Source of the DNA: a virus
Lineage: Duplodnaviria; Heunggongvirae; Uroviricota; Caudoviricetes
DNA: 15,265 nucleotides
IMG/VR virus record: IMGVR_UViG_2526164632_000028
Strand: one strand, 5' to 3'
The notes beneath the pieces were generated by a model. It was not told the origin of the DNA and made no database searches. It worked only from the letters and a program-made list of their open reading frames with translations. Positions 1 through 15,002 of this stretch are shown piece by piece (positions within the stretch are counted from its first letter, which is position 1; each line of letters opens with the position of its first letter). The position numbers and the translations under genes are program-made.

Positions 1-1119
1 TTAAATAACCAACTTAACCCATTCCTGACCTCGAGTATCGTTATAGCGATCGGTGGTTGCCTGGACTTTATGTCCTAGTAATGTTTTTGTATCGATACCC
101 TGTGCACGGTACAGCCGTTCTGATAGAGAGCGTTGTTCATGAAATGTTGGCGGAGTTTTTCCTGCTGGTGGAATTATCCCAGCCAGATCCCGTGCTTTGG
201 CAAAGTAGTCGCTCAGGTTGTCTTTACTCATCGGCTTCGGTTGTTTCTGGTGCCGACTATGGATTAGATATGGACTTAATATTCTGTCTCGGCACCCATC
301 AATAACTTCTTTTAACGTTATCCCAATGGCATCACAGCGTAGTGTAAGCGGTAACGCCAGACGCATTCTGGTTTTTCCCTGGGTGATATGCAAGTGTTCG
401 TTCCACACATCTGAAAAACGCATGTGGCAAATGTCATCACGGCGCTGACCAGTAACAATCGCAAGAAGCATTGCGTTACGGATAAAGTGTTTTTCAGGCG
501 TTGCATTGTAAATTTTTTGCCAGTCTTCCATGGTGAGCCTGGCTCTGGTTACTTTAGGGATCGGTTTACGGGTAGCCTCCGGAGGATTCCATCCAGGAGG
601 AACTTCCCCTGCATGCTGTGCTTCTTTATAAATATCAACCCATAATCCACGATTTACTCTCGCTGTGCTGACCATGTCTTTATCCAGCCACTCATCCAGT
701 ATTAATGCAAAGTCTCTTACTTCCAGTTCTTTCAATGGGTGGTTTCCCAGACGGGAAACCAGGTATGCAGCCATTCGAGTTTTTTCTTTGTGAGTTGTAG
801 CTGCAATATCTCCATTTTTCAGTCGCGTGTCCTGTATTTTCAGATATCGATCAACCCATGCCTTTAATCTGATACCCCGACGTTTTGTTGCTGACGGACT
901 TTCATCAATTTTGCGCATGAAATATTCAGCTTCTGCTGCAGCTATTCGCTGATTGGCTGTGGAAGCGATTTTTTCTGCCTTACCTTTGTCTGTTCCGAGT
1001 CCGTGAAATTTTCCAGTCACAGGATTTTTATACTGGTAGTAAACTCTGCCAGTTCTGCGATCAAACTTTTCGTAAAGACCGGCTACGTCAGTGCTGTTTT
1101 TTCGTGGCCTCGGTGACAT
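1..1119 (-). CDS. int: site-specific tyrosine integrase, lambda Int family
   Basis: 372-aa ORF with stop at 1-3. C-terminal region ...PPTFHEQRSLSERLY...LGHK...TDRYNDTRGQEW parallels the lambda Int catalytic region (HxxR, LGHK, catalytic Tyr). Start is overlapped by the upstream xis ORF, as in lambda. Confidence 0.9.
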   Translation of the reverse strand: MSPRPRKNSTDVAGLYEKFDRRTGRVYYQYKNPVTGKFHGLGTDKGKAEKIASTANQRIAAAEAEYFMRKIDESPSATKRRGIRLKAWVDRYLKIQDTRLKNGDIAATTHKEKTRMAAYLVSRLGNHPLKELEVRDFALILDEWLDKDMVSTARVNRGLWVDIYKEAQHAGEVPPGWNPPEATRKPIPKVTRARLTMEDWQKIYNATPEKHFIRNAMLLAIVTGQRRDDICHMRFSDVWNEHLHITQGKTRMRLALPLTLRCDAIGITLKEVIDGCRDRILSPYLIHSRHQKQPKPMSKDNLSDYFAKARDLAGIIPPAGKTPPTFHEQRSLSERLYRAQGIDTKTLLGHKVQATTDRYNDTRGQEWVKLVI

Positions 1120-1357
1120 GAGTTAAAATCTCCTTCAGTGCATCATCATCGCCAGTATGAATTTCCGGCGCAATTTCCGTTTCACCAGGCCCAACAAATA
1201 CTGCTCGGCGATCTATCAGCCAACGCCCACGAATTTTTTGTGGCCTTGGAACGATGTATCCTAGTTTTCCGTATTTCACCAGGGTAGTGTTTGTTATTGG
1301 GAGACTGAACCGTTTTGGTTTCCACTCGTCGAGCGTTATCAGGTACTGTTCGCTCAT
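1088..1357 (-). CDS. xis: putative excisionase (Xis-like)
   Basis: 89-aa ORF (MSEQYLITLDEWKPKRF...) directly upstream of int, overlapping the int start by 32 nt. ATG at 1357 with SD GGAG about 9 nt upstream; the tabulated ORF begins at a GTG 9 nt further up. Call is by position and size only. Confidence 0.55.
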   Translation of the reverse strand: MSEQYLITLDEWKPKRFSLPITNTTLVKYGKLGYIVPRPQKIRGRWLIDRRAVFVGPGETEIAPEIHTGDDDALKEILTHVTEATKKQH

Positions 1358-1418
1358 GGCTATCACTCCGGAACGCGCCAGTTGCAGAATATCAACGACA
1401 ACTGGCGACGGTTGAACA

Positions 1419-3890
1419 TTAAAAATCAGCCTGACTCGGGATCAGTTTTTGCCAGATAACTGAAACGTATTTTGCCTGGTAACGGGCGTCATCAAGTGCA
1501 TTATGGCGCTCACCTTCGAATGGAATAGCCGTTCTGGCATCGAAGTCTATGGCTTTCCCCAGCTCAACGATTGTGCGTACATCGCGATCGTTGTAGTAAC
1601 GCCACGGGCAGGGGATCCCCTGCCGTTCGTATGAACGGCGCAAAATCGTGTTGTCGAAGTTGGCTCCATTTCCCCAGACCTGAACAAAAAATTCACCGGA
1701 GTTTTCGTCGATAAATTCCCGCAATTGTAACAGTGCATCATCTAACGGGATTTCATCGGTCATAATGGCAGATTGCGCTTCGCGTGATTGCTTAAGCCAC
1801 CATTTAATGGTGTCCCGATCAATGACTCCGCCAGCAGTTTCCAGATCGATAGTCTTACTAAATTCCGGTCCCATATCTCCGGTTTGCGGATCGAAAAATA
1901 TTGCACCTATTGAGATAATCGGGGCATCGGGATTTTTTCCCATGGTTTCAAGGTCGATCATCAGATGAATCCCCGCTCTGCTGGTGGATGTGAGATTATG
2001 ATGACCGTTCGCCTTAATTAAGGGATCTGACGCCTCGCCAGTTTCACTATCGCTGGCATGATGCTGATTGCCGCCAGTGTTCTCCTTGTGCTGATGCGCA
2101 GTGCCTTCCATTTCCTCCGGATCATTTTCCTGAACTTCAGGCTGATTCTCTCCATCGAATATTTCCTGGTATGTTGCGTCACCCATCACCGCACCACAAT
2201 CAGGGCAGTTGCCGCCACCGCTCTGACCGCAGGCGGTGCAGATCTTTTCCGGTTCCTGTTGCACTACTGGTTCAGGTTGTTTCGTTTCTGGCTCGTTTTG
2301 TTGCGTATTTGGGCTGTTTTGTTCCGCTTTCTGGTCGTTCTGTTCCGTTTCTTGCTGGTTCTGGTTCACAGAATCGCGGGTCTGGATCCCCTTAACCCAT
2401 TTCGGATCATTCGGGTCGCTAATCCCTTCAACAAATTCACCACGTGATACTGCAAGCAGTTCATCGGCGTCAGGCTGGCTGATATTGGCTGCCTGCATAA
2501 TTTTGTTTACTTCGTCAGCGGTAACTTTTACTGACCCTGGTTGTGCGGTCGTGTCAGATGCACCAGTATTTTGTTGTGAACCTGAGTATGTACCGTTTTT
2601 GCGGGCGAAATATTCTTCTTTCGTGATTTCAGTAGCCCCAGCAGACAGCGCCTTATCCAGACCAGAAAGTTTGTTTGCGCGACCGTATTTTTCGCCATCC
2701 TTGTCGGTGAAGAGGAAGTAGAACGGCCCCTCACGCTCTACAGATGGTTCAGCTTCCGGCGCGGTTTCATTTTTTGGGATATCAGATACCTCAGTTTCCA
2801 CTGCATCAGTTTGTGTTTCTGATGACTGGAGAACATCAACAGTGCCCAGGTCTGTTTCTTCATTCTCAAACACGCCCTTTGTCGTCAGGTATTCGCAGAT
2901 ATATTTGTTCAGTGCTACGGGATCTTTGTGAATGTCGATCGAACGTTCACGGACAAGGCCAAAAATAGTCTGGCGGTCGTAGCGAAGGGCATCAGGCTGT
3001 TTGCGCATTGATGCCGAGATACGCTTCCAGTCTTCGCGGCCGTTGTCGATAACTTCATTTTTTGCCCAGCGATGGATGCTGCCGTCAATGTTTCCGGCAT
3101 CCACATCACCAGGCCAGAGAGCGTAGGCCAGTTCGTCATCCAGTGTTTTCCATGTCTGCTTGTATTCGCGATGAATGGCAGCAATGACCGGGCTGATTTT
3201 TCCTGTTGAATTTTCAGTGTACTGTTGATTGGCTCTGGCGCGGGCGAGATCAACAACAGACGTGTATTTTCCGGTTTCCTTGCGTTCGCCTTCGCGACGT
3301 TTTTTCCAGATGCGCATCTCTGCCTGAATTTCGGGCCATTTAGCACCAGGAATACATTTATGCTTAACCCACCCAATGGCGTGCAACTTAAGCTCCGGAT
3401 ACATGGCGTTAACTTCTGGCATTTTCATCAACGCTTCAACGATATGTCCGTCGAATGTTGCCATGTCTTCCTGCAACAATTCCTGTGCGCTAATAACCAT
3501 ATCAACGGTGATGTTTTCACATGTGTCGAACTTAACCATGACAGCGTTCTGTACTTCAGGGGCCAGCTTGTCAAAAGTGACGTTCATCGGATAGGATTCA
3601 GTCTCAACCGGGACAAAAGAAGCAGACTCCTCATCCCAGCGGTTTTCCTGCATATATTCAGCATCCCATGAATCGAGGGCAGGGCGGGGTATGCCAGGTT
3701 TATCCTCGCAGACAATAAATTTATAAGCGCAGTCCTGAGCTGCCGGATAATGTTCCAGGAATTGCCAGTGAAATTTTGCGCGGGCGCGACATTCATCACC
3801 GGCTTCAATGGCAGTGGCTACAGCGACTGCACCTTCTTCCTTTATTGCCTGTTCGTCCGGAATGGCGGCGCAAATAAAGACTTTACTCAT
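1419..3890 (-). CDS. large prophage exonuclease: N-terminal domain of unknown function, acidic Q/E/N-rich linker with zinc ribbon, C-terminal DnaQ-like DEDDh 3'-5' exonuclease domain
   Basis: 823-aa ORF. C-terminal motifs MIDLETMG (Exo I, D-x-E), WGNGANFD (Exo II) and HNALDDARY (Exo III, H-x4-D). Central CTACGQSGGGNCPDCG zinc-ribbon motif in a low-complexity acidic linker. Sits in the lambda exo / Rac recE position; the K-12 ydfE fragment downstream of ydfD may be a truncated homologue (inference). Confidence 0.85.
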   Translation of the reverse strand: MSKVFICAAIPDEQAIKEEGAVAVATAIEAGDECRARAKFHWQFLEHYPAAQDCAYKFIVCEDKPGIPRPALDSWDAEYMQENRWDEESASFVPVETESYPMNVTFDKLAPEVQNAVMVKFDTCENITVDMVISAQELLQEDMATFDGHIVEALMKMPEVNAMYPELKLHAIGWVKHKCIPGAKWPEIQAEMRIWKKRREGERKETGKYTSVVDLARARANQQYTENSTGKISPVIAAIHREYKQTWKTLDDELAYALWPGDVDAGNIDGSIHRWAKNEVIDNGREDWKRISASMRKQPDALRYDRQTIFGLVRERSIDIHKDPVALNKYICEYLTTKGVFENEETDLGTVDVLQSSETQTDAVETEVSDIPKNETAPEAEPSVEREGPFYFLFTDKDGEKYGRANKLSGLDKALSAGATEITKEEYFARKNGTYSGSQQNTGASDTTAQPGSVKVTADEVNKIMQAANISQPDADELLAVSRGEFVEGISDPNDPKWVKGIQTRDSVNQNQQETEQNDQKAEQNSPNTQQNEPETKQPEPVVQQEPEKICTACGQSGGGNCPDCGAVMGDATYQEIFDGENQPEVQENDPEEMEGTAHQHKENTGGNQHHASDSETGEASDPLIKANGHHNLTSTSRAGIHLMIDLETMGKNPDAPIISIGAIFFDPQTGDMGPEFSKTIDLETAGGVIDRDTIKWWLKQSREAQSAIMTDEIPLDDALLQLREFIDENSGEFFVQVWGNGANFDNTILRRSYERQGIPCPWRYYNDRDVRTIVELGKAIDFDARTAIPFEGERHNALDDARYQAKYVSVIWQKLIPSQADF

Positions 3891-3982
3891 TTTGTTTTAC
3901 CTCATTACAGATTTAAGGGTGAACAAATCCCTGCCATTGCTGGCATATAAGAATGAAATCGGATGTTTATTACGGAACTGTT

Positions 3983-4174
3983 TTAAAGACCTGCCGGGAT
4001 TTCGTTATTATCCTGGTGAATAACTTTATCGACCGGGTAACAGTTACCGGGAATTTTCTGTTCGGTTGCTGCAGTCACACACTCCTGCATTGTCCTGTGA
4101 ACACTGACTGCAATATCAACTGGCTCTCCGGAAACAAGAAAAACTGTCAGAACAAGTGCAAATGCTGTATTCAT
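3983..4174 (-). CDS. ydfD: YdfD-like small protein with N-terminal hydrophobic segment (lysis protein family of the dicB operon)
   Basis: 63-aa ORF MNTAFALVLTVFLVSGEPVDIAVSV...NNEIPAGL. Its ATG overlaps the dicB stop (ATGA). Size, position after dicB and sequence match my recollection of Qin YdfD. The tabulated ORF (to 4228) has an unlikely 18-aa extension. Confidence 0.7.
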   Translation of the reverse strand: MNTAFALVLTVFLVSGEPVDIAVSVHRTMQECVTAATEQKIPGNCYPVDKVIHQDNNEIPAGL

Positions 4175-4359
4175 TGCCAGCATCCTTTTTGTATCGGACG
4201 TAAACGGGCCAGCATTGAAAGAATGCATATTTTATTTAATAACTCCCGTTCGTGTTTTCTCTTGTTAATGGCATCTTCAGTAAATACAGGGTTACTGATA
4301 GTGACACCAATTTCAAAACAACCTTCAGACGTATTAACGTTTGGTAATAACGTTTCCAT
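4171..4359 (-). CDS. dicB: cell division inhibitor DicB
   Basis: 62-aa ORF METLLPNVNTSEGCFEIGVTISNPVFTEDAINKRKHERELLNKICILSMLARLRPIQKGCWQ, matching E. coli DicB as I remember it along nearly its whole length. SD GAGGA upstream of ATG at 4359. DicF-like sequence lies immediately upstream on the same strand. Confidence 0.85.
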   Translation of the reverse strand: METLLPNVNTSEGCFEIGVTISNPVFTEDAINKRKHERELLNKICILSMLARLRPIQKGCWQ

Positions 4360-4528
4360 TATCGCGTCCTCAACAATGAATTTTGTGATGCGGTGCCTGG
4401 TGCCTCCAGGTGACGTTAACCAGTTAACAATTAACGCCGGATACAGAGAATCCACCCATAACACTGTTTTTGGTTTTAACTGTTCCGCGTGCGCTCAGCC
4501 GCATTCACCACATCACAAAATTCACTTT

Positions 4529-4586
4529 AAAAAGGGCGGCAGAGCAGTCACGGAGTAAAACTGATACCGCCAAACGTCACCAGAAA
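4529..4586 (-). ncRNA. dicF: DicF small regulatory RNA (ftsZ-targeting sRNA processed from the dicB operon transcript)
   Basis: Minus-strand sequence TTTCTGGTGACGTTTGGCGGTATCAGTTTTACTCCGTGACTGCTCTGCCGCCCTTTTT matches my recollection of E. coli DicF, ending in a GC stem plus U-tract. Located just upstream of dicB as in Qin. Exact ends are uncertain by a few nt. Confidence 0.7.
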
Positions 4587-4920
4587 ATTGATAACAGAGG
4601 GCGTTGCAGCGGGGTTGTCACTTAAGCGTATGGTCAACCTGACAACCCGGTGTCCTCAACGGGGAAGGAATAACCCCGCCATACTTACCGCCGCGCCATT
4701 TCGCGGAGTGCCACAACCGGAAGCGCACGGTCGACGAAAATTTAACGACAGGCTATCTATGAACCAACAACTTCGCCGTGCGCTTTCGCGTTATGCCCTG
4801 ACTTTTCAGGGAGATATCCTTTCAGTAAACTGTCAGTGCCGGATGCTCACCCGTGTCCGGCGCACGCACTCCACCTCACCCGTGGAGAACTCCTTAATTA
4901 CTAACCCTCAGGAGGATGAA

Positions 4921-5196
4921 ATGGGGTTTGATGTCAATGAAACTCTTAACTCTCTTATACGGAAAATTAATGATTTTGATAAAACACTACAGCATGCTGC
5001 GGCGCGTAGTGATATAACATTGTTAGCAATTTCATACCTTGCATCTGCCATGAATAAAGATGAAACGGTACGAAAGAATCTCGTTGATTATATCGACTCG
5101 CTTCAGCCGGGCACTTTCAACCCTGAGAGCTTCAATCATGAGAAAGAGCATGTTAAATCTGTAATTAATTCTCTTGTTTTGAATCAAAAGAATTGA
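4921..5196 (+). CDS. hypothetical protein (92 aa), antisense to the dicB-operon spacer
   Basis: ATG at 4921 preceded by strong SD GGAGG with 5-nt spacing; protein-like sequence MGFDVNETLNSLIRKINDFDKTLQHAAARSD... The 3' end overlaps the convergent ydfB/C-like gene by 32 nt. No homology recognised; could be spurious. Confidence 0.35.
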   Translation: MGFDVNETLNSLIRKINDFDKTLQHAAARSDITLLAISYLASAMNKDETVRKNLVDYIDSLQPGTFNPESFNHEKEHVKSVINSLVLNQKN

Positions 5197-5506
5197 TGCT
5201 TCTTGTTACGAAGCAATTTTCAAGGGGTTCTATCCGAATCCCTTTCTTTTCCATTAACAAGCCAAACCCCTTATTAATGATGTCCATTAATTCCAGGAAG
5301 TATTTTTTATGTAAATCCTGGTTATCAGAGAGTTGCTTCTCTTCGTACAGACCGATAAAGGCACGACGCACGTTACCGGATATATTATCGATGGTTTCTT
5401 TTTCTACGGTACTCAGGTCAAGAGTCGCCAATTGAGAATGAACTATATTCGCTGCCATTTCCTGGAATGGCATTGGTAAATCTTTAAATTCCATCGTCAA
5501 CCTCAT
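5165..5506 (-). CDS. hypothetical protein of the dicB operon (position of K-12 ydfB-ydfC; possibly their intact fused form)
   Basis: 113-aa ORF MRLTMEFKDLPMPFQEMAANIVHSQ... Its start overlaps the upstream ydfA-like stop by 1 nt (TGATG coupling). 113 aa is close to the 42+72 aa of K-12 YdfB+YdfC (from memory, unverified). Confidence 0.65.
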   Translation of the reverse strand: MRLTMEFKDLPMPFQEMAANIVHSQLATLDLSTVEKETIDNISGNVRRAFIGLYEEKQLSDNQDLHKKYFLELMDIINKGFGLLMEKKGIRIEPLENCFVTRSINSFDSKQEN

Positions 5507-5658
5507 CAGTCAGTATTTCTGGCTAACCAGCGACGCGCGCCAGCTTCGGTTTTAAACGTTTTGCTTTTGGTATACGTCATCGCCGTGAACGTGCCGTCTT
5601 GGTTTGGAAACACGCCGTATACCAGAGACTCGTTGTTGCCAAGATCGATAGTATCCAT
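5506..5658 (-). CDS. ydfA: YdfA-like small protein, first gene of the leftward (pL-type) operon
   Basis: 50-aa ORF MDTIDLGNNESLVYGVFPNQDGTFTAMTYTKSKTFKTEAGARRWLARNTD with SD GAGG 9 nt upstream of ATG at 5658. The tabulated longer ORF (to 5736) lacks an RBS. Size and position match K-12 ydfA (from memory). Confidence 0.6.
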   Translation of the reverse strand: MDTIDLGNNESLVYGVFPNQDGTFTAMTYTKSKTFKTEAGARRWLARNTD

Positions 5659-5780
5659 GCTGACCTCATTTCCCCTTAACGCCGGGGTGGCGGAACAAAA
5701 ACCTGCTGCATAGTTAAAGTTGAACCCTGCCGTCATGTTCTTACGCCTCGGGCTGGCTACTTAACCCCTGACCACTGCCG

Positions 5781-5865
5781 GGTAACTCGAAGTATTTCCC
5801 TGCGTTCTGTGGGGCGGGGTGGGTTGGTATGTTGTTAAGGTAACAAGAGTTACCTTTCGAGTCAA
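5781..5865 (-). promoter_or_regulatory. putative leftward early promoter (pL-like) with repressor operator(s)
   Basis: Palindrome GGTAACaagaGTTACC at 5839-5854 and half-site GGTAAC at 5781-5786. On the minus strand, -35 TTGACT (5865-5860), 17-nt spacer, -10 TACCTT (5842-5837), with the operator overlapping spacer and -10. Same half-site as the two sites next to the repressor gene. Confidence 0.45.
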
Positions 5866-5895
5866 TACAATGTTGCAAAAGGTACATTTGAGGGC

Positions 5896-5920
5896 ATAAA
5901 AAACCCGCAATGAATGCGGG
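5896..5920 (-). terminator. rho-independent terminator downstream of the repressor gene
   Basis: Minus-strand hairpin CCCGCA-ttcat-TGCGGG (5920-5904) followed by TTTTTTAT, 8 nt after the repressor stop codon. Confidence 0.6.
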
Positions 5921-5927
5921 TTCTGAC

Positions 5928-6602
5928 TCAGTCTAAGTATTGATGTATTTGTGAAACTTTACCTTTAATGGTGTAACCACCATTCAGTTCGATGGGTTTG
6001 TAAAGCGGATTCAGTGACAACAAATAGATGTTTGGTCCGTCAATCGCAACTTTTTTTAGTGTTACGTTTGGCGTTCCTTCCAATTGGATTAAGATTATTT
6101 TTCCCACCAGTTCTCTAATGTTACTTGAGCATGGTGTGATCAGCACGGTAGATCCGTCGGGGATGGTTGGGAGGCCGTTAGAGTTTGTCATCGCATCTCC
6201 CTCAACATGCAATAAAAAAGAGTTTTCAGCGGTTTTTGTCATGACATCAACCCAGTTATTAATACCAGGAATCTTGGTTACTGGACAACTCATATCCCAA
6301 TAACCAGCCTGTTCCCACGTTAAAACGGGCAACCGGGCGATGTTGTCACTAATGTAAGGGTACTGATTCAGACGCAGATCATCGGTTTTATCGTGACAGT
6401 CCTTTCCATAAAGAATCCATTCAGGAGATTTGGAAAGCAATTTTGACAGTAGATACAAATTCTCACCGTCAGGTTTTGAAGAGCCATTTTCCCATTTTGT
6501 TACGGATACACGAGATATGCCGATTGCTTTCGCAACCTGCTGTTGGGTTAATCCAACGTCTTTTCGACGATTCCGAATACGTTCGCTGATAGTGTTTTTC
6601 AT
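5928..6602 (-). CDS. cI: prophage repressor, P22 C2 / lambda cI type (N-terminal XRE-type HTH, C-terminal S24 LexA-like domain) with Ala at the catalytic Ser position
   Basis: Start taken at ATG 6602 (MKNTISERIRNRRKDVGLTQQQVAKAIGISRVSVTKWENG..., P22 C2-like N-terminus). The tabulated ORF to 6701 begins with TTG and has no RBS. C-terminal domain aligns to the lambda cI S24 region (VEGDAMT vs VEGNSMT; VTLKKV vs FTFKKL). Ala-Gly (QAGY) is present in the linker. Confidence 0.85.
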   Translation of the reverse strand: MKNTISERIRNRRKDVGLTQQQVAKAIGISRVSVTKWENGSSKPDGENLYLLSKLLSKSPEWILYGKDCHDKTDDLRLNQYPYISDNIARLPVLTWEQAGYWDMSCPVTKIPGINNWVDVMTKTAENSFLLHVEGDAMTNSNGLPTIPDGSTVLITPCSSNIRELVGKIILIQLEGTPNVTLKKVAIDGPNIYLLSLNPLYKPIELNGGYTIKGKVSQIHQYLD

Positions 6603-6667
6603 GTAACCAATGTTACTACCAAGTGATGTTGCTATGGTTGACATTGTTATGTAACTATTGTTACCCT
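6603..6667. promoter_or_regulatory. immunity-region operators and divergent promoters (OR/pR/pRM-like)
   Basis: Two palindromes GTAAC-N4-GTTAC at 6603-6616 (abutting the cI start) and 6651-6664. Rightward -35 TTGACA at 6638-6643 with -10 TACCCT near 6662-6667 overlapping the second operator. A leaderless leftward cI transcript with -10 TAACAT (6615-6610) is possible. Confidence 0.45.
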
Positions 6668-6693
6668 TCTGCTCGAAATAACAGGAGAGTTTT

Positions 6694-6908
6694 ATGTTCA
6701 AAGATGATGTTCTGCGCTATTTCAAAAAAAGCGACTAGTAGCTGAGGCTCTTGGAATTTCACATGTGGCTGTTGTGCGGTGGAAAGCAGTTATTCCCAAA
6801 CTTCGCGCAATGGAACTGGATGAAATTACTAACGGTGAATTGAAATACAACCCAGAACTTTACAAGAAGCAGGATAGCACCTCGAACGAAGGAAAGAATG
6901 ATTCATGA
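6694..6908 (+). pseudogene. cro: cro/dicC-like HTH regulator interrupted by a frameshift at an A7 tract
   Basis: ATG 6694 with SD AGGAGAG; reading frame MFKDDVLRYFKKSD stops at 6736-6738. The -1 frame continues (KK)RLVAEALGISHVAVVRWKAVIPKLRAMELDEITNGELKYNPELYKKQDSTSNEGKNDS to TGA at 6906-6908, which overlaps the next gene ATG (ATGA). One extra A in the A7 run (6724-6730) restores a 72-aa Cro/DicC-like protein. Confidence 0.55.
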
Positions 6909-7352: not shown

Positions 7353-8315
7353 ATGAGCAGCAAGCTTCATGGTCTTGTCTGGGAAGGGTGCGCCTTCACC
7401 GGCATGATCTTATCCAGGGTGGCGGTTATGGCCCGTCTTGCAGACTACAGCAATGACGAGGGCGTGTCATGGCCTGCCATTGAAACTATCCGGCGTCAGA
7501 TCGGTGCAAGAAGTGAATCCACAGTGAAATCGGCTATTGCAGAACTGGCGAAAGAGGGCTGGCTGACGAAGGAAGAGCGTAAGGTCGGTGGGCGTAATGT
7601 AAGCAATATCTATCGGCTTAATGTGGAAAAACTCGAAGCAGCTGCGGCGGCGGCGCGTGAGTCATATAAACCGAAAAGAAAAATTAGCCCGGCAAAAAAT
7701 GACCCGTTAACAGTTGACCCGTCAAATATTGACCCCTCAACGGTTGACCCGTCAAATTTTGATGGATCAACTGTTGATAAAAAACTGCCGATTAGGGGGG
7801 CGATGATTGACCCCGATCCGTCAGTATTAAAACCTGATCCGTCAGATAAAAGATCTTCTTGTCCGGACGCTTCGCAACCGGACCCGCAGACGGCTGAACA
7901 GGATTTTTTAACCCGACACCCTGACGCGGTTGTGTTCAGTGCGAAAAAACGCCAGTGGGGAAGTCAGGAAGATTTGGTGTGCGCACAGTGGATCTGGGGA
8001 CGAATCGTGAGTCTTTACGAGCAGGCGGCCAGCGATGATGGCGAGATCACTAGACCGAAAGAACCCAACTGGACAGCATGGGCCAATGACGTTCGCACAA
8101 TGCGGATGCTGGATGGCAGAACTCACAGACAAATTTGTGAAATGTTTGGGCGTCTCCAGCGGGATTCGTTCTGGGTAAAAAACATCATGAGTCCGGCAAA
8201 ACTCCGGGAAAAATGGGATGAACTGGTTATCCGCCTGGGGCGTTCGCCTGCGCAGCGTTGCGTGAATCACATTTCTGAACCGGACACTGAAATACCGCCG
8301 GGATTCAGGGGGTGA
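7353..8315 (+). CDS. replication initiator (O-like): N-terminal winged-helix DNA-binding domain, internal iteron-encoded DPxxV repeats, DnaT-like C-terminal domain
   Basis: ATG 7353 with GGGGG SD (tabulated ORF starts at GTG 7338). N-terminal ...SWPAIETIRRQIGARSESTVKSAIAELAKEGWL... C-terminus ...VNHISEPDTEIPPGFRG resembles the E. coli DnaT C-terminus (...SEPDSQIPPGFRG, from memory). Followed immediately by the DnaC-like gene. Confidence 0.8.
   Translation: MSSKLHGLVWEGCAFTGMILSRVAVMARLADYSNDEGVSWPAIETIRRQIGARSESTVKSAIAELAKEGWLTKEERKVGGRNVSNIYRLNVEKLEAAAAAARESYKPKRKISPAKNDPLTVDPSNIDPSTVDPSNFDGSTVDKKLPIRGAMIDPDPSVLKPDPSDKRSSCPDASQPDPQTAEQDFLTRHPDAVVFSAKKRQWGSQEDLVCAQWIWGRIVSLYEQAASDDGEITRPKEPNWTAWANDVRTMRMLDGRTHRQICEMFGRLQRDSFWVKNIMSPAKLREKWDELVIRLGRSPAQRCVNHISEPDTEIPPGFRG
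7699..7785. repeat. iteron array (putative replication origin) inside the initiator gene
   Basis: Six units with exact 15-bp period starting at 7699, 7714, 7729, 7744, 7759 and 7774; core TTGACCCGTCAA is itself palindromic (TTGAC/GTCAA). Followed by A-rich GATAAAAAACTG. Encodes the peptide repeat DPLTV-DPSNI-DPSTV-DPSNF-DGSTV. Confidence 0.6.
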
Positions 8316-12685: not shown

Positions 12686-12928
12686 GGGTGTTCATGGCGG
12701 TCATGTGCATTGAATACTGGCGGTAAATACAGCGAACGCCATTGGTTTAGTTGGATATTTACTGTGCCGGACAAAAACGGTTTGCGGGGAAATCTTAGTT
12801 AAGTAGAATGACTGCGGGTGCTTGAGGCTATCTGTCTCAGGCATGAACACCAAAAGGCAGATAGAGAAAAGCCCCAGTTAACATTACGCGTCCTGCAAGA
12901 CGCTTAACATTAATCTGAGGCCATATCT

Positions 12929-12988
12929 ATGCGACACATAGAGATTAGCCTCTTACGGACCGAAAGGTCAAGGAGAAGCAGGCTATGA
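12929..12988 (+). CDS. mok-like leader ORF coupled to hok (19 codons)
   Basis: ATG 12929 with SD GAGG 9 nt upstream; MRHIEISLLRTERSRRSRL; its TGA (12986-12988) overlaps the hok ATG (12985-12987). Confidence 0.4.
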   Translation: MRHIEISLLRTERSRRSRL

Positions 12989-13140
12989 AGCAGCAAAAGG
13001 CGATGTTAATCGCCCTGATCGTCATCTGTTTAACCGTCATAGTGACGGCACTGGTAACGAGGAAAGACCTCTGCGAGGTACGAATCCGAACCGGCCAGAC
13101 GGAGGTCGCTGTCTTCACAGCTTACGAACCTGAGGAGTAA
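12985..13140 (+). CDS. hokD: Hok-family type I toxin (HokD/RelF-like)
   Basis: 51-aa ORF MKQQKAMLIALIVICLTVIVTALVTRKDLCEVRIRTGQTEVAVFTAYEPEE, recognised as Hok/Gef family. Followed by a 9-bp-stem GAAA hairpin (13148-13169) and a terminator. In Qin, hokD lies next to rem and ydfU, as here. Confidence 0.85.
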   Translation: MKQQKAMLIALIVICLTVIVTALVTRKDLCEVRIRTGQTEVAVFTAYEPEE

Positions 13141-13306: not shown

Positions 13307-13579
13307 ATGGTGCACAAAACCAAATTTCACAATTCTGATACCGACCTTGCCATCCGGCATGGGCGGCGTTCACACGCATTTAAAACCGACTGGTACCAAC
13401 ACCCACCATGTACTGAAGAACAGGCCGAATGGCTAATTCATAACTACCGCAGACGCGGATACGAGATTAAGAAAGCCCTCAGCCTCGATTATCGTCACTG
13501 GATAATCTATGTCAGGCTCCCTTATTCCGAACGCCCACCGCGTCCGTCCCGCACATTCCAGCAACGCATCTGGAGGTAA
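13307..13579 (+). CDS. rem: Rem-like small basic protein
   Basis: 90-aa ORF MVHKTKFHNSDTDLAIRHGRRSHAFKTDWYQHPPCTEEQAEW... between hok and the ydfU-like gene, as in Qin; its stop overlaps the SD of the next gene. Named by position and size only. Confidence 0.5.
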   Translation: MVHKTKFHNSDTDLAIRHGRRSHAFKTDWYQHPPCTEEQAEWLIHNYRRRGYEIKKALSLDYRHWIIYVRLPYSERPPRPSRTFQQRIWR

Positions 13580-13580
13580 C

Positions 13581-14636
13581 GTGCGGGTATTACTTCGACC
13601 TGTTCCGGTACCGGAACTTGGGCTGGTGGTGCTAAAACCGGGCCGTGAATCCATGCAGGTATTTCATAACCCTCGAGTTCTGGTGGAGCCGGAACCGAAA
13701 AGCATGCGCGGTCTGCCGTCCGGAGTCGTTCCTGCTGTTCGCCAGCCGCTGGCGGAGGATAAATCATTACTGCCATTTTTCAGCGATGAGCGGGTGATTC
13801 GTGCTGCTGGTGGTGCTGGTGCATTGTCTGACTGGCTGTTACGCCACATTAAATCCTGCCAGTGGCCTCATGGTGACTACCATCACAGTGAAACCGTCAT
13901 ACATCGTTACGGTACCGGCGCGATGGTGTTGTGCTGGCACTGCGACAACCAGCTGCGTAACCAGACTTCCGAATCACTCGGGCAGCTTGCTCACCAAAAC
14001 CTGTCAGCATGGATGATTGATGTCATCCGCCACGCAATGAATGGCACGCAGGAGCGGGAATTATCGCTGGCTGAATTATCCTGGTGGGCAACCATAAATA
14101 ACGTAGCGGACGCACTACCGGAGACGGTGTTACGTCGTTCACTGGGATTACGCGCGGAAAAAATTCGCTCAGTATACCGCGAGAGCGACATCGTGCCGGG
14201 AGAGCAGACCGCCACCAGCATGCTGAAGCAGCGCACAAAAAATATTGCGCTACTGCCTCACGCCCACCAGCAAAACCCGCCACAGGAAAAGACGGTGGTA
14301 AGCATTGCCGTTGATCCGGAGTCACCGGCTCAGTATCTCCAGCGCCAGAAACCACGACGGGAAGAGATGCCTGTATACACGCGTTGGGTAAAAACGCAGA
14401 AATGCATGACGTGTGGTAATCAGGCAGATGATCCGCATCACATCATTGGTCATGGACTGGGAGGGATGGGAACAAAGGCTGATGATTTGTTTGTTATTCC
14501 GCTGTGCCGTAAATGCCATAGCGAACTACACGCCGGGGTAAAAGATTTTGAAGAAAAACACGGCAGCCAGCTGTTGTTGCTGATTCGTTTTTTAATGCAC
14601 GCGAGAAATTCGGGTGTCCTGAAGTGGAAAGCATGA
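13581..14636 (+). CDS. ydfU: YdfU-like DUF968 protein with HNH-like zinc-finger motifs
   Basis: GTG 13581 with SD GGAGG 4 nt upstream (tabulated ORF starts at ATG 13509, no RBS). Motifs CWHCDNQ and CMTCGNQADDPHHIIGHGLGG...CRKCHSELH. Stop TGA is immediately followed by the rusA ATG. Confidence 0.75.
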   Translation: MRVLLRPVPVPELGLVVLKPGRESMQVFHNPRVLVEPEPKSMRGLPSGVVPAVRQPLAEDKSLLPFFSDERVIRAAGGAGALSDWLLRHIKSCQWPHGDYHHSETVIHRYGTGAMVLCWHCDNQLRNQTSESLGQLAHQNLSAWMIDVIRHAMNGTQERELSLAELSWWATINNVADALPETVLRRSLGLRAEKIRSVYRESDIVPGEQTATSMLKQRTKNIALLPHAHQQNPPQEKTVVSIAVDPESPAQYLQRQKPRREEMPVYTRWVKTQKCMTCGNQADDPHHIIGHGLGGMGTKADDLFVIPLCRKCHSELHAGVKDFEEKHGSQLLLLIRFLMHARNSGVLKWKA

Positions 14637-15002
14637 ATGACTGAACGCATAGAATTTGTTTTGCCTTACCCGCCAACGGTGAACACTTACTGGCGACGTC
14701 GTGGCAGCACATATTTTGTATCAAAAGCCGGTGAGCGTTATCGCCGTGATGTGGCGCTTATTGTTCGCCAGCAGCGGCTGAAATTAAACCTGTCCGGAAG
14801 GCTGGCGATAAAGATTATTGCAGAGCCACCGGATAAACGTCGTCGTGACCTGGACAATATCCTGAAAGCACCACTGGATGCGCTGACGCATGCCGGACTT
14901 CTCATAGACGACGAGCAGTTTGATGAAATCAATATTGTGCGCGGTCAGCGCGTTCCTGGGGGACGGCTGGGCGTGAAGATTTACAAAATTGAGAGTGAGT
15001 GA
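14637..15002 (+). CDS. rusA: Holliday junction resolvase RusA
   Basis: 121-aa ORF MTERIEFVLPYPPTVNTYWRRRG...DKRRRDLDNILKAPLDALTHAGLLIDDEQ...VPGGRLGVKI, collinear with E. coli RusA including the conserved Asp residues of the RRRDLDN segment; typical nin-region position before Q. Confidence 0.9.
   Translation: MTERIEFVLPYPPTVNTYWRRRGSTYFVSKAGERYRRDVALIVRQQRLKLNLSGRLAIKIIAEPPDKRRRDLDNILKAPLDALTHAGLLIDDEQFDEINIVRGQRVPGGRLGVKIYKIESE

What the first reader, a model, noticed from the sequence alone, without database searches (positions are those of the whole stretch)
1419..3890. Large exonuclease in the recE/exo position with a DnaQ-like 3'-5' (DEDDh) domain and no adjacent annealing protein
The 823-aa protein has an acidic Q/E-rich linker with a zinc ribbon and then clear Exo I, II and III motifs of the DEDDh 3'-5' exonuclease family. 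The exonucleases of lambda Red and Rac RecE are 5'-3' enzymes with a different nuclease fold, partnered with Bet or RecT. No bet, recT or erf-like gene is present between xis and the dicB operon. The role of this enzyme (recombination, anti-defence, or other) is unclear.
Basis: partly seen in the sequence, partly recalled or inferred. Interest (0 to 1): 0.55.

Follow-up and report, generated by a model that had tools for sequence, protein, structure and literature searches.

The report
RecE-like prophage protein with swapped nuclease
This prophage gene encodes a relative of the recombination enzyme RecE in which the usual DNA-chewing domain is replaced by one of the opposite polarity and the usual partner protein is missing; this version is in about 75% of complete E. 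coli genomes, and I found no experimental study of it.

Summary
Window 1419-3890 (-) is an intact 823-aa gene. It has a Q/E-rich linker, a CxxC...CxxC zinc ribbon and a C-terminal DEDDh 3'-5' exonuclease domain (Pfam Rv2179c-like, E 5e-67). The catalytic residues are D646, E648, D746, H796 and D801. No annealing protein is encoded in the window or beside the gene in 11 related loci.

New findings:
- Residues 246-626 are homologous to the non-catalytic part of Rac RecE. Similarity stops exactly where RecE's 5'-3' nuclease would begin.
- Residues 1-256 are 98% identical to the K-12 pseudogene ydfE.
- The gene is therefore the intact form of ydfE: a RecE-family scaffold with its catalytic tail exchanged.
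- The DEDDh tail is in 4069 of 5426 complete E. coli genomes. The RecE nuclease tail is in 1736.
- The DEDDh tail is never followed by recT in the loci examined.

The most likely role is a repressor-controlled, stand-alone exonuclease acting on DNA 3' ends. This is inferred, not shown. A DexA/EcD-like role against 5hmC phage DNA is a weaker rival.

The parts
1419..3890 (-). Whole gene: an 823-aa RecE-scaffold/DEDDh exonuclease, the intact form of ydfE. The stop codon is at 1419-1421.
   Evidence: ORF list and translation. RefSeq annotates it as 'exonuclease'. phrog_2082 matches full length with E = 0.
3186..3890 (-). Head module N1 (residues 1-235), the YdfE-type head. It is predicted to fold as an alpha/beta subdomain (about 1-100) plus a helical subdomain (about 105-222).
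2841..3185 (-). Module N2 (residues 236-350), a helical domain shared with RecE residues 278-350.
   Evidence: BLASTP against K-12 RecE. NCBIfam PRK09709. pLDDT above 90. Present in relatives with either head and with any tail.
2571..2738 (-). Module N3 (residues 385-440), a mini-domain with the sequence 'GPFYF..GRANK..EEYFARKNG'. It is flanked by disordered acidic linkers (residues 346-384 and 439-460).
   Evidence: Predicted as two beta-hairpins plus helices, with pLDDT above 90. 97% conserved among E. coli copies. Found in relatives with DEDDh, RecE-nuclease, Rad52-like (type C) and type D tails.
2361..2498 (-). Motif N4 (residues 465-510), 'SRGEFVEGISDPNDPKWVKGIQTRD'. It is shared almost verbatim with RecE residues 466-490.
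   Evidence: BLASTP against RecE. Weak Pfam DUF4072 match. Found in most architectures of the family.
2175..2360 (-). Q/E-rich low-complexity linker (residues 511-545) followed by a zinc ribbon (residues 546-572; CTAC 551-554 and CPDC 562-565).
   Evidence: Composition scan and CxxC motifs. The same ribbon is present in RecE residues 514-534. The cysteines are conserved in 122-123 of 126 sequences.
1986..2174 (-). Acidic linker (residues 573-635). Similarity to RecE ends at residue 625, which is the mosaic joint.
   Evidence: BLASTP similarity ends at residue 625 of this protein, matching RecE residue 591. DNA similarity to Rac recE covers only window 2017-2466, at 76.6%.
1422..1985 (-). DEDDh 3'-5' exonuclease tail (residues 636-823). 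Catalytic codons: D646 at 1953-1955, E648 at 1947-1949, D746 at 1653-1655, H796 at 1503-1505, D801 at 1488-1490.
   Evidence: Pfam PF16473, E 5e-67. PDB sequence match to 8kel/8ken ('Exodeoxyribonuclease', 227 aa), which I take to be T4 DexA. Alignment with T4 DexA. The catalytic residues are each conserved in at least 125 of 126 sequences.
3983..4359 (-). Upstream genes of the same operon: a ydfD-like DUF1482 gene (3983-4174) and dicB (4171-4359).
   Evidence: phrog_1092 and phrog_1251. RefSeq annotation of the equivalent locus.
4534..4585 (-). DicF small RNA, which marks this as a dicBF-type early-left operon.
   Evidence: Rfam RF00039, 76.7 bits against a gathering score of 48.
1..1366 (-). 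Downstream genes: xis (1088-1366) and int (1-1119). No gene lies between the exonuclease and xis.
   Evidence: ORF list and RefSeq annotation.

Best explanation
What it is. The gene encodes a modular protein of the RecE family. It has a long, non-catalytic scaffold (residues 1-635) made of small folded modules joined by disordered acidic linkers. The modules are a YdfE-type head, a helical N2 domain, the N3 mini-domain, the 'GISDPNDPKW' motif and a zinc ribbon. At the position where Rac RecE carries its 5'-3' PD-(D/E)XK nuclease, this scaffold carries an intact DEDDh 3'-5' exonuclease of the DexA/Rv2179c kind.

How it most likely works (inferred).
- The gene is the last cargo gene of the repressor-controlled dicBF-type early-left operon. 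It would therefore be made on prophage induction or derepression.
- The scaffold would deliver the tethered DEDDh tail to the same substrate or partner to which RecE's scaffold delivers its nuclease, that is, DNA ends or recombination and replication intermediates.
- There the tail would degrade 3'-ended strands.
- It would work as a single-component end-processing enzyme. It is not coupled to a phage annealase and would depend on host functions for any later step.

Shown: the domain architecture, the homology, the mosaic joints, the conserved active site, the gene context and the prevalence. Inferred: DNA as substrate, 3'-5' polarity in this protein, timing of expression, and the biological role.
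For: Tail identity.
- Pfam PF16473, E 5e-67.
- All five DEDDh residues align with those of T4 DexA.
- Each is conserved in at least 125 of 126 relatives.

Homology of the scaffold with RecE.
- PRK09709, E 6.6e-80, over residues 246-626.
- BLASTP 1e-59, with near-identity across the motif and zinc ribbon, ending at the start of RecE's nuclease domain.
- The DNA joint lies at window 2017.

Modularity.
- Local module mapping of the representatives of 480 aa or more shows two heads (YdfE type or PF06630 type).
- Both heads combine with DEDDh, RecE-nuclease, type C and type D tails.
- hhalign against RAD52 residues 46-161 is colinear.
- Two of the alternative tails on this scaffold are therefore DNA-recombination activities.

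Context.
- The order dicB-ydfD-exo-xis-int recurs in the window and in 11 related loci at five integration sites (potC, rspB/ynfA, tRNA-Ser/mtfA, ompW; phage mEp460 is unintegrated).
- Phage mEp460 has its own phage genome record in the collection, so I take it to be a viable phage. One of the loci, in O157:H7, is split by an IS element.
- In K-12 the dicB promoter is reported to read through ydfD and ydfE and to be repressed by DicA (PMC11430063).
- A stand-alone homologue lies between the SSB and DNA polymerase genes in Klebsiella phage SBP.

Selection.
- The tail is 96% conserved among the 120 E. coli clusters sampled. Linker 1 is only 61% conserved.
- The tail is in 4069 of 5426 complete genomes.
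Against: - No biochemical or genetic data exist for this protein. Searches for ydfE plus exonuclease plus prophage, and for RecE plus DEDDh plus prophage, returned no papers.
- Pfam named the tail family after an exoribonuclease (Rv2179c), and NCBI names many copies '3'-5' exoribonuclease'. RNA cannot be excluded as the substrate.
- A 3'-5' exonuclease acting at DNA ends destroys the 3' tails that canonical recombination uses. A pro-recombination role is therefore not obvious.
- The function of the RecE N-terminal region is itself unknown (PMC11611040). 'Delivery by the scaffold' is an argument from shared architecture only.
- The copies in K-12 and in an O157:H7 strain are disrupted by IS elements, so the gene is dispensable for the host.
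Confidence: 0.5

Rival explanations
1. Anti-phage defence of the 'HREX' type. The DEDDh tail would act like EcD, the E. coli DexA homologue reported to degrade 5hmC-modified T4 DNA. The prophage would then protect its host from T-even phages.
For: - The tail matches the 227-aa 'Exodeoxyribonuclease' of PDB entries 8kel/8ken, which I take to be T4 DexA (E 1.4e-6). It is 27% identical to T4 DexA, with all catalytic residues shared.
- PMC12153337 reports that plasmid-borne EcD protects E. coli from T4. It also reports that DexA homologues are most frequent in Escherichia and absent from K-12. Absence from K-12 fits ydfE being truncated there.
- From my own knowledge, not checked here: DicB, from the same operon, has been reported to protect against some phages.
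Against: - The residue equivalent to DexA W152, needed for 5hmC DNA cleavage, is Y766 here. It varies freely in the family: Y 56, C 38, S 16, H 13.
- The D169 equivalent aligns with Ala.
- The D90 equivalent, which is lost in EcD, is retained as Asp.
- EcD is a different short protein. Its primers imply the ends MIDTET... and ...TIPETYD. It was not among the 505 proteins fetched.
- The gene lies in a repressor-controlled operon, so it is not expected to be made in a quiescent lysogen.
- PADLOC gave only a generic DEDDh hit, E 1.7e-5.
- A defence role does not explain why the same scaffold carries a RecE nuclease or a Rad52-like annealase.
Confidence: 0.15
2. RNA exonuclease. The tail would trim or degrade RNA 3' ends, as reported for Rv2179c, the founding member of its Pfam family. 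Possible substrates are host transcripts, signalling oligonucleotides, or the operon's own DicF precursor.
For: - The Pfam family is named for a 3'-5' exoribonuclease, and NCBI uses the same name.
- The gene shares a transcript with the processed small RNA DicF.
Against: - The closest member I found with published biochemistry is T4 DexA, described as a DNA exonuclease.
- The scaffold is shared with DNA enzymes: the RecE nuclease and a Rad52-like annealase.
- Stand-alone homologues sit in DNA replication modules.
Confidence: 0.1
3. Counter-defence or host takeover. The enzyme would remove 3'-ended ssDNA or DNA ends that host systems use or sense, for example RecBCD or RecA loading or end-sensing defence systems. 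Tail swapping would then reflect an arms race rather than a recombination role.
For: - The gene sits in the early-left operon beside the host-directed functions DicB, DicF and YdfD.
- The catalytic tail has been exchanged extensively on a constant scaffold.
- In Pseudomonas phage MP1412 a stand-alone homologue lies three genes from an anti-restriction gene.
Against: This rests entirely on circumstance. No known anti-defence family matched, and no target is identified.
Confidence: 0.2
4. Decaying, functionless remnant of a recE gene in defective prophages.
For: The copies in K-12 (ydfE, cut by IS2) and in an O157:H7 strain (cut by IS1203) are broken. Many short fragments appear among the representatives.
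Against: - The reading frame is intact at full length in most loci examined.
- The active site and zinc-ribbon residues are almost invariant.
- The tail is present in 4069 of 5426 genomes.
- The gene is also present, full length, in the genome record of phage mEp460.
Confidence: 0.03

Closest known systems
RecE (exonuclease VIII) of the Rac prophage, E. coli K-12
   Same: - It occupies the same slot in the early-left operon, upstream of xis and int.
- Residues 246-626 are homologous to RecE 271-603. This includes the 'GISDPNDPKWVKGIQTRD' motif and the CxxC...CxxC zinc ribbon.
- The overall design is the same: a long non-catalytic N-terminal region carrying a C-terminal nuclease.
   Different: - The catalytic tail is a DEDDh 3'-5' exonuclease, not the PD-(D/E)XK 5'-3' nuclease. 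PF12684 is absent.
- The head is the YdfE type, not the PF06630 type.
- There is no recT, ralR or rcbA downstream.
- The match scores 269 bits, far below the 1269-bit equivalog cutoff.
YdfE, a pseudogene of the Qin prophage in E. coli K-12
   Same: 98% identical over residues 1-256, with the same position after dicB-ydfD.
   Different: K-12 ydfE is truncated by IS2 and lacks everything after residue 256, including the nuclease. The window holds the intact gene.
T4 DexA (exonuclease A) and the Rv2179c-like DEDDh family (PF16473)
   Same: Same fold family and the same five catalytic residues. DexA is annotated in the T4 genome record as a 3'-5' DNA exonuclease.
   Different: - Only 27% identical to DexA.
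- DexA and Rv2179c are stand-alone proteins of about 170-230 aa. Here the domain is the tail of an 823-aa scaffold.
- The DexA residues tied to 5hmC recognition (W152, D169) are not conserved.
Stand-alone 190-aa DEDDh exonucleases of enterobacterial prophages (for example phage 1720a-02 AGR48394)
   Same: 61% identical to the tail, with the same ends of the domain. This is the likely donor lineage for the tail. The family is widespread in Enterobacterales.
   Different: No scaffold. The gene sits in the ea region next to EaA, not in the recE slot.
Two-component phage recombinases (lambda Exo/Bet, RecE/RecT)
   Same: Same genomic slot and the same regulation logic. The scaffold is shared with RecE.
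   Different: No annealase partner and the opposite exonuclease polarity. It therefore cannot work by the 5'-resection, 3'-tail annealing scheme.

Membership tests
RecE / exodeoxyribonuclease VIII (NCBIfam PRK09709 equivalog) | C-terminal PD-(D/E)XK 5'-3' nuclease domain (PF12684/DUF3799; RecE residues about 600-866) | tested here: not met
   Pfam finds no PF12684. BLASTP similarity to RecE ends at RecE residue 591. The same Pfam scan does find PF12684 in the relatives P0131 and P0142.
RecE / exodeoxyribonuclease VIII (NCBIfam PRK09709 equivalog) | Whole-protein score above the curated cutoff | tested here: not met
   269 bits against a cutoff of 1269. The match is limited to model positions 271-603.
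RecE / exodeoxyribonuclease VIII (NCBIfam PRK09709 equivalog) | Homologous non-catalytic middle region with the 'GISDPNDPKW' motif and zinc ribbon | tested here: met
   E 6.6e-80. BLASTP 1e-59, with near-identity over residues 474-625.
RecE / exodeoxyribonuclease VIII (NCBIfam PRK09709 equivalog) | Adjacent recT partner gene | tested here: not met
   No RecT in the window. None follows the gene in the 11 DEDDh-tail loci examined. recT lies under every RecE-nuclease-tail hit listed.
DEDDh (DnaQ-like) 3'-5' exonucleases, Rv2179c-like subfamily PF16473 | Profile match above the gathering score | tested here: met
   225.4 bits against 27, covering 176 of 177 profile positions.
DEDDh (DnaQ-like) 3'-5' exonucleases, Rv2179c-like subfamily PF16473 | Exo I D-x-E, Exo II D, Exo III H-x4-D | tested here: met
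   D646/E648, D746 and H796/D801 lie in columns invariant with T4 DexA. Each is conserved in at least 125 of 126 relatives.
DEDDh (DnaQ-like) 3'-5' exonucleases, Rv2179c-like subfamily PF16473 | 3'-5' exonuclease activity, and whether the substrate is DNA or RNA | not testable with these tools
   Needs a biochemical polarity and substrate assay.
HREX / EcD-type 5hmC-DNA exonuclease (PMC12153337) | Tryptophan equivalent to DexA W152 and acidic residue equivalent to D169 | tested here: not met
   The W152 equivalent is Y766, which varies in the family (Y, C, S, H). The D169 equivalent aligns with Ala. The loop alignment around D169 is uncertain.
HREX / EcD-type 5hmC-DNA exonuclease (PMC12153337) | Loss of the tetramer-forming Asp (DexA D90; Ala in EcD) | tested here: not met
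   The equivalent residue, D718, is Asp.
HREX / EcD-type 5hmC-DNA exonuclease (PMC12153337) | Protection against T4 and selective cleavage of 5hmC DNA | not testable with these tools
   Needs plating and nuclease assays. The EcD sequence could not be retrieved for comparison.
Two-component (exonuclease + annealase) phage recombinase | A single-strand annealing protein encoded next to the exonuclease | tested here: not met
   PHROGs scans of 20 window ORFs, plus the annotation of the related loci listed above.

The most novel reading that the evidence does not exclude
The non-catalytic region shared with RecE may be a general adaptor. Lambdoid prophages of Enterobacterales would use it to deliver interchangeable DNA-end tools to one common target. 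The tools seen are a 5'-3' nuclease, a 3'-5' nuclease, a Rad52-type annealase and at least one unknown tail. The target could be a host protein or a DNA structure.

The DEDDh version is the commonest one in E. coli. It would then define a pathway not yet studied: free of any phage annealase, acting on 3' ends, and serving phage recombination, replication or counter-defence. It would also give the first functional handle on the RecE N-terminus, whose role is still unknown.
Probability: 0.3. Interest if true: 0.75.

Novelty: new variant of a known kind. Interest (0 to 1): 0.58.

Why it matters
RecE/RecT is a main tool of recombineering, yet the function of RecE's 600-residue N-terminal region is unknown. 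All that is known is that full-length RecE boosts linear-linear recombination (PMC11611040).

This work shows three things.
- The same scaffold is reused in nature with catalytic tails of opposite polarity, and with a likely annealase.
- The 3'-5' DEDDh version outnumbers canonical RecE in complete E. coli genomes by about 2.3 to 1 (4069 against 1736).
- That version always lacks RecT in the loci examined.

These points make the scaffold's role directly testable by tail swaps and partner pull-downs. They also point to a very common prophage function that I found no study of. If the enzyme turns out to act on DNA ends, it could supply new recombineering parts. If it turns out to be a defence or counter-defence nuclease, it would matter for phage therapy in E. 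coli.

Tried and rejected
- Sequence and profile searches of the PDB with the whole protein and with the tail alignment found only the 227-aa 'Exodeoxyribonuclease' of 8kel/8ken, which I take to be T4 DexA. Rv2179c itself was not reached.
- PADLOC gave only generic DEDDh hits. The protein is not a member of a catalogued defence system.
- I could not retrieve EcD (HAK9828821.1). The primers give only its termini. None of the 505 fetched proteins carries those termini. The paper's Table S3 lists accession numbers only.
- Literature searches for ydfE plus exonuclease plus prophage, for Rv2179c plus phage, and for RecE plus DEDDh plus prophage found nothing relevant.
- I considered that an annealase might be hidden among the small window ORFs. 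This was rejected after the PHROGs scans.
- I considered that the gene might be an assembly or frameshift fusion. This was rejected because the same full-length frame recurs in the related genomes and phage records examined.
Full report
SETTING

The window is the left arm of a lambdoid, Qin/Rac-like prophage of Escherichia coli, integrated next to potC. Near-identical DNA (99.7-99.8%) is found in two complete genomes, and parts of it in 5160 of 5426 genomes.

On the minus strand the gene order is:
- a cI-like repressor (5928-6701);
- ydfA/B/C-like small genes;
- the DicF small RNA (4534-4585; Rfam 76.7 bits);
- dicB (4171-4359);
- a ydfD-like DUF1482 gene (3983-4174);
- the gene in question (1419-3890);
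- xis (1088-1366);
- int (1-1119).

Replication genes, hok/sok, a DUF968/HNH gene and rusA lie on the plus strand to the right.

CHECK OF THE OBSERVATION

ORF 1419-3890 (-) encodes 823 aa.

Pfam places a Rv2179c-like 3'-5' exonuclease domain (PF16473) at residues 642-813, with E 5.2e-67. The only solved structures found by sequence are PDB entries 8kel and 8ken. They are labelled 'Exodeoxyribonuclease', are 227 aa long, and I take them to be T4 DexA.

I aligned the tail with T4 DexA, a second T4-like DexA and a stand-alone prophage homologue. The residues D646, E648, D746, H796 and D801 fall in invariant columns. They correspond to DexA D7, E9, D119, H186 and D191 (DexA catalytic residues from PMC12153337). 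Each is conserved in at least 125 of 126 family members examined.

The Q/E-rich linker and the zinc ribbon are real and conserved. In residues 511-540, 97% of residues are polar, charged or small. The cysteines are at C551/C554 and C562/C565.

PHROGs scans of 20 further ORFs found no RecT, Red-beta, Erf, Sak or Rad52 family.

WHAT IT IS

(1) The N-terminal two thirds are homologous to RecE.
- The NCBIfam equivalog for exodeoxyribonuclease VIII matches residues 246-626 to model positions 271-603, with E 6.6e-80. The score is far below the membership cutoff.
- BLASTP against K-12 RecE aligns residues 262-625 with RecE 278-591. The match is nearly identical across 'SRGEFV(E/D)GISDPNDPKWVKGIQTRD', the zinc ribbon and the acidic stretch after it.
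- Similarity stops at RecE residue 591. RecE's nuclease domain is placed at residues 564-866 in the review PMC11611040.
- At the DNA level, similarity to Rac recE covers only window 2017-2466 and ends at the same joint.

(2) Residues 1-256 are 98% identical to the K-12 Qin pseudogene ydfE, which is cut off by IS2. The window therefore holds the intact form of ydfE. Recent Pfam releases have families YdfE_N and YdfE_C. These are on record for a close relative of this protein, P0021, which is 89% identical over residues 1-638.

(3) An AlphaFold model of residues 1-460 was built from 42 sequences and has a mean pLDDT of 81.
- It shows separate confident modules at about residues 1-100 (alpha/beta), 105-222 (helical), 245-340 (helical) and 390-431 (two hairpins plus helices).
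- These are joined by disordered segments at 223-236, 346-384 and 439-460.

The protein is thus a string of small modules ending in the exonuclease.

A FAMILY OF SWAPPED MODULES

A full HMMER scan with residues 1-640 was run against 1.84 billion cluster representatives. It found only 242 relatives.

I mapped modules onto the representatives of 480 aa or more. Two alternative heads occur: the YdfE type and the PF06630 'Exonuc_VIII' type. Both combine with the middle modules and with at least four alternative tails:
- the DEDDh domain (8 representatives);
- the RecE-type PD-(D/E)XK nuclease (13, confirmed by Pfam PF12684 in two that were tested);
- a 'type C' tail (at least 14);
- a 'type D' tail of unknown nature (4).

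Some representatives have none of these tails.

Mosaic joints inside the gene coincide with module borders. Phage vB_EcoS-813R8 shares window 3-2532 and 3886-4906 at 95-97% identity, but carries a different head in between.

The tail itself is 61% identical to stand-alone 190-aa exonucleases of enterobacterial prophages. That lineage is the likely source of the tail.

CONTEXT AND PREVALENCE

I examined 11 loci related to the window:
- an O111 genome with the prophage at potC;
- phage mEp460;
- phage 813R8;
- a metagenomic contig;
- four E. coli genomes sampled across the identity range;
- two genomes whose gene combines a Rac-type RecE head with the DEDDh tail.

In all 11, as in the window, the DEDDh-tailed gene is followed directly by xis or int. 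This holds whichever integrase and attachment site are present. None has recT.

In contrast, every listed hit to the RecE nuclease tail overlaps recT.

DNA of the DEDDh tail is present in 4069 of 5426 complete E. coli genomes, at 8111 places and up to 7 per genome. DNA of the RecE nuclease tail is present in 1736 genomes.

The Rac-head plus DEDDh-tail combination occurs in 193 genomes.

In K-12 the dicB promoter is reported to read through ydfD and ydfE and to be repressed by DicA (PMC11430063). From this I infer that the intact gene is expressed on derepression.

HOW IT MOST LIKELY WORKS

Shown: the architecture, an intact and conserved DEDDh active site, the scaffold shared with RecE, the absence of an annealase, and the membership of the operon.

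Inferred: on induction, the scaffold brings the tethered tail to the same DNA ends or partner that RecE's scaffold targets. There the tail removes nucleotides from 3' ends, acting as a stand-alone processing enzyme.

The link to DNA rests on three points:
- The closest member I found with published biochemistry is T4 DexA, described as a DNA exonuclease (PMC12153337; T4 record annotation).
- The other tails on this scaffold are a dsDNA exonuclease and a probable annealase.
- A stand-alone homologue lies between the SSB and DNA polymerase genes in Klebsiella phage SBP.

What the 3' trimming achieves is not known. It could serve recombination with host proteins, replication, or protection from host systems.

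RIVALS

Defence against 5hmC phages (the HREX type, PMC12153337) is attractive because the E. coli DexA homologue EcD protects against T4. Several points weigh against it:
- The DexA residues tied to 5hmC cleavage are not kept. W152 corresponds to a variable position (Y, C, S or H), and D169 aligns with Ala.
- The Asp that EcD has lost is retained here.
- EcD is a different, short protein that I could not retrieve.
- The operon is repressor-controlled.

An RNA substrate cannot be excluded, because the Pfam family takes its name from an exoribonuclease. A counter-defence role is possible but has no direct support. A dead remnant is contradicted by the conservation data.

COMPARISON WITH WHAT IS KNOWN, AND NOVELTY

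The gene is not a RecE orthologue. The nuclease domain, the score cutoff and the recT partner were all tested and not met. It does share RecE's scaffold by descent.

It is a member of the DEDDh Rv2179c-like family by profile and by motifs. It is not a two-component recombinase.

Databases already label it 'exonuclease' or '3'-5' exoribonuclease'. I found no paper that describes the RecE homology, the tail exchange, the annealase-tailed relatives or the prevalence. The searchable library is limited to open-access text, so this is not proof of absence.

I class it as a new variant of a known kind, with an interest score of 0.58. The gene is common and generically annotated. What is of interest is the opposite-polarity tail on RecE's scaffold, the systematic lack of RecT, and a sister protein with a fused Rad52-like domain. 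Together these are unexpected and make the unexplained RecE N-terminus experimentally approachable.

Noticed in passing
[not shown]
   Followed up: partly
proteins P0126, P0133, P0255, P0262 (C-terminal 50-230 residues): A fourth alternative tail ('type D', with the conserved sequence 'QQLTIAALxGLCANPA') sits on the same scaffold. It has no Pfam match and its function is unknown.
   Followed up: no
L019 3721-6165 and L020 3721-6159; 193 E. coli genomes in all: Some genes combine the Rac-type RecE head (PF06630) with the DEDDh tail. These too are followed directly by xis and int, without recT. Loss of recT therefore tracks the tail, not the head.
   Followed up: yes
L011 3501-7285 (O157:H7 strain Vac_07.1); L003 5079-6549 (K-12 Qin): Two independent IS insertions have inactivated this gene: IS1203 in the O157:H7 copy and IS2 in K-12 ydfE.
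   Followed up: partly
protein P0201 (703 aa): This representative has RecE residues 1 to about 515 joined in frame to RecT. It is a deletion that removes the RecE nuclease domain.
   Followed up: no
window 4534-4585 (-): The DicF small RNA (Rfam RF00039, 76.7 bits) lies upstream of dicB in the same operon as the exonuclease.
   Followed up: yes
window 12816-13140 (+): A hok/sok type I toxin-antitoxin pair: sok RNA at 12816-12987 (Rfam RF01794, 106.7 bits) and the hokD ORF at 12985-13140.
   Followed up: partly
window 13509-15002 (+): A DUF968/HNH endonuclease gene (phrog_96) and a RusA Holliday-junction resolvase gene are present, although the prophage encodes no annealase.
   Followed up: no
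window about 4600-5930 (-), including ORF 5165-5506: This stretch differs from the otherwise 99.7%-identical O111 prophage, which covers only 96% of the window. ORF 5165-5506 (113 aa, phrog_6937, unknown function) belongs to a swapped segment between dicF and the repressor.
   Followed up: no
window 1419-1445 (-), the last residues of the protein (...KLIPSQADF): The C-terminus ends in an acidic stretch followed by Phe, and relatives end in ...NQADF or ...NPVDF. From memory this resembles the protein-binding tip of bacterial SSB. It is not conserved in the stand-alone homologue.
   Followed up: no
L016 3489-4025 (Klebsiella phage SBP); L018 3453-4064 (Vibrio phage K304): Stand-alone homologues of the tail occur in lytic and temperate phages of many hosts (753 phage records). 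In SBP the gene lies between the SSB and DNA polymerase genes. In K304 it is the last gene before the integrase gene.
   Followed up: partly
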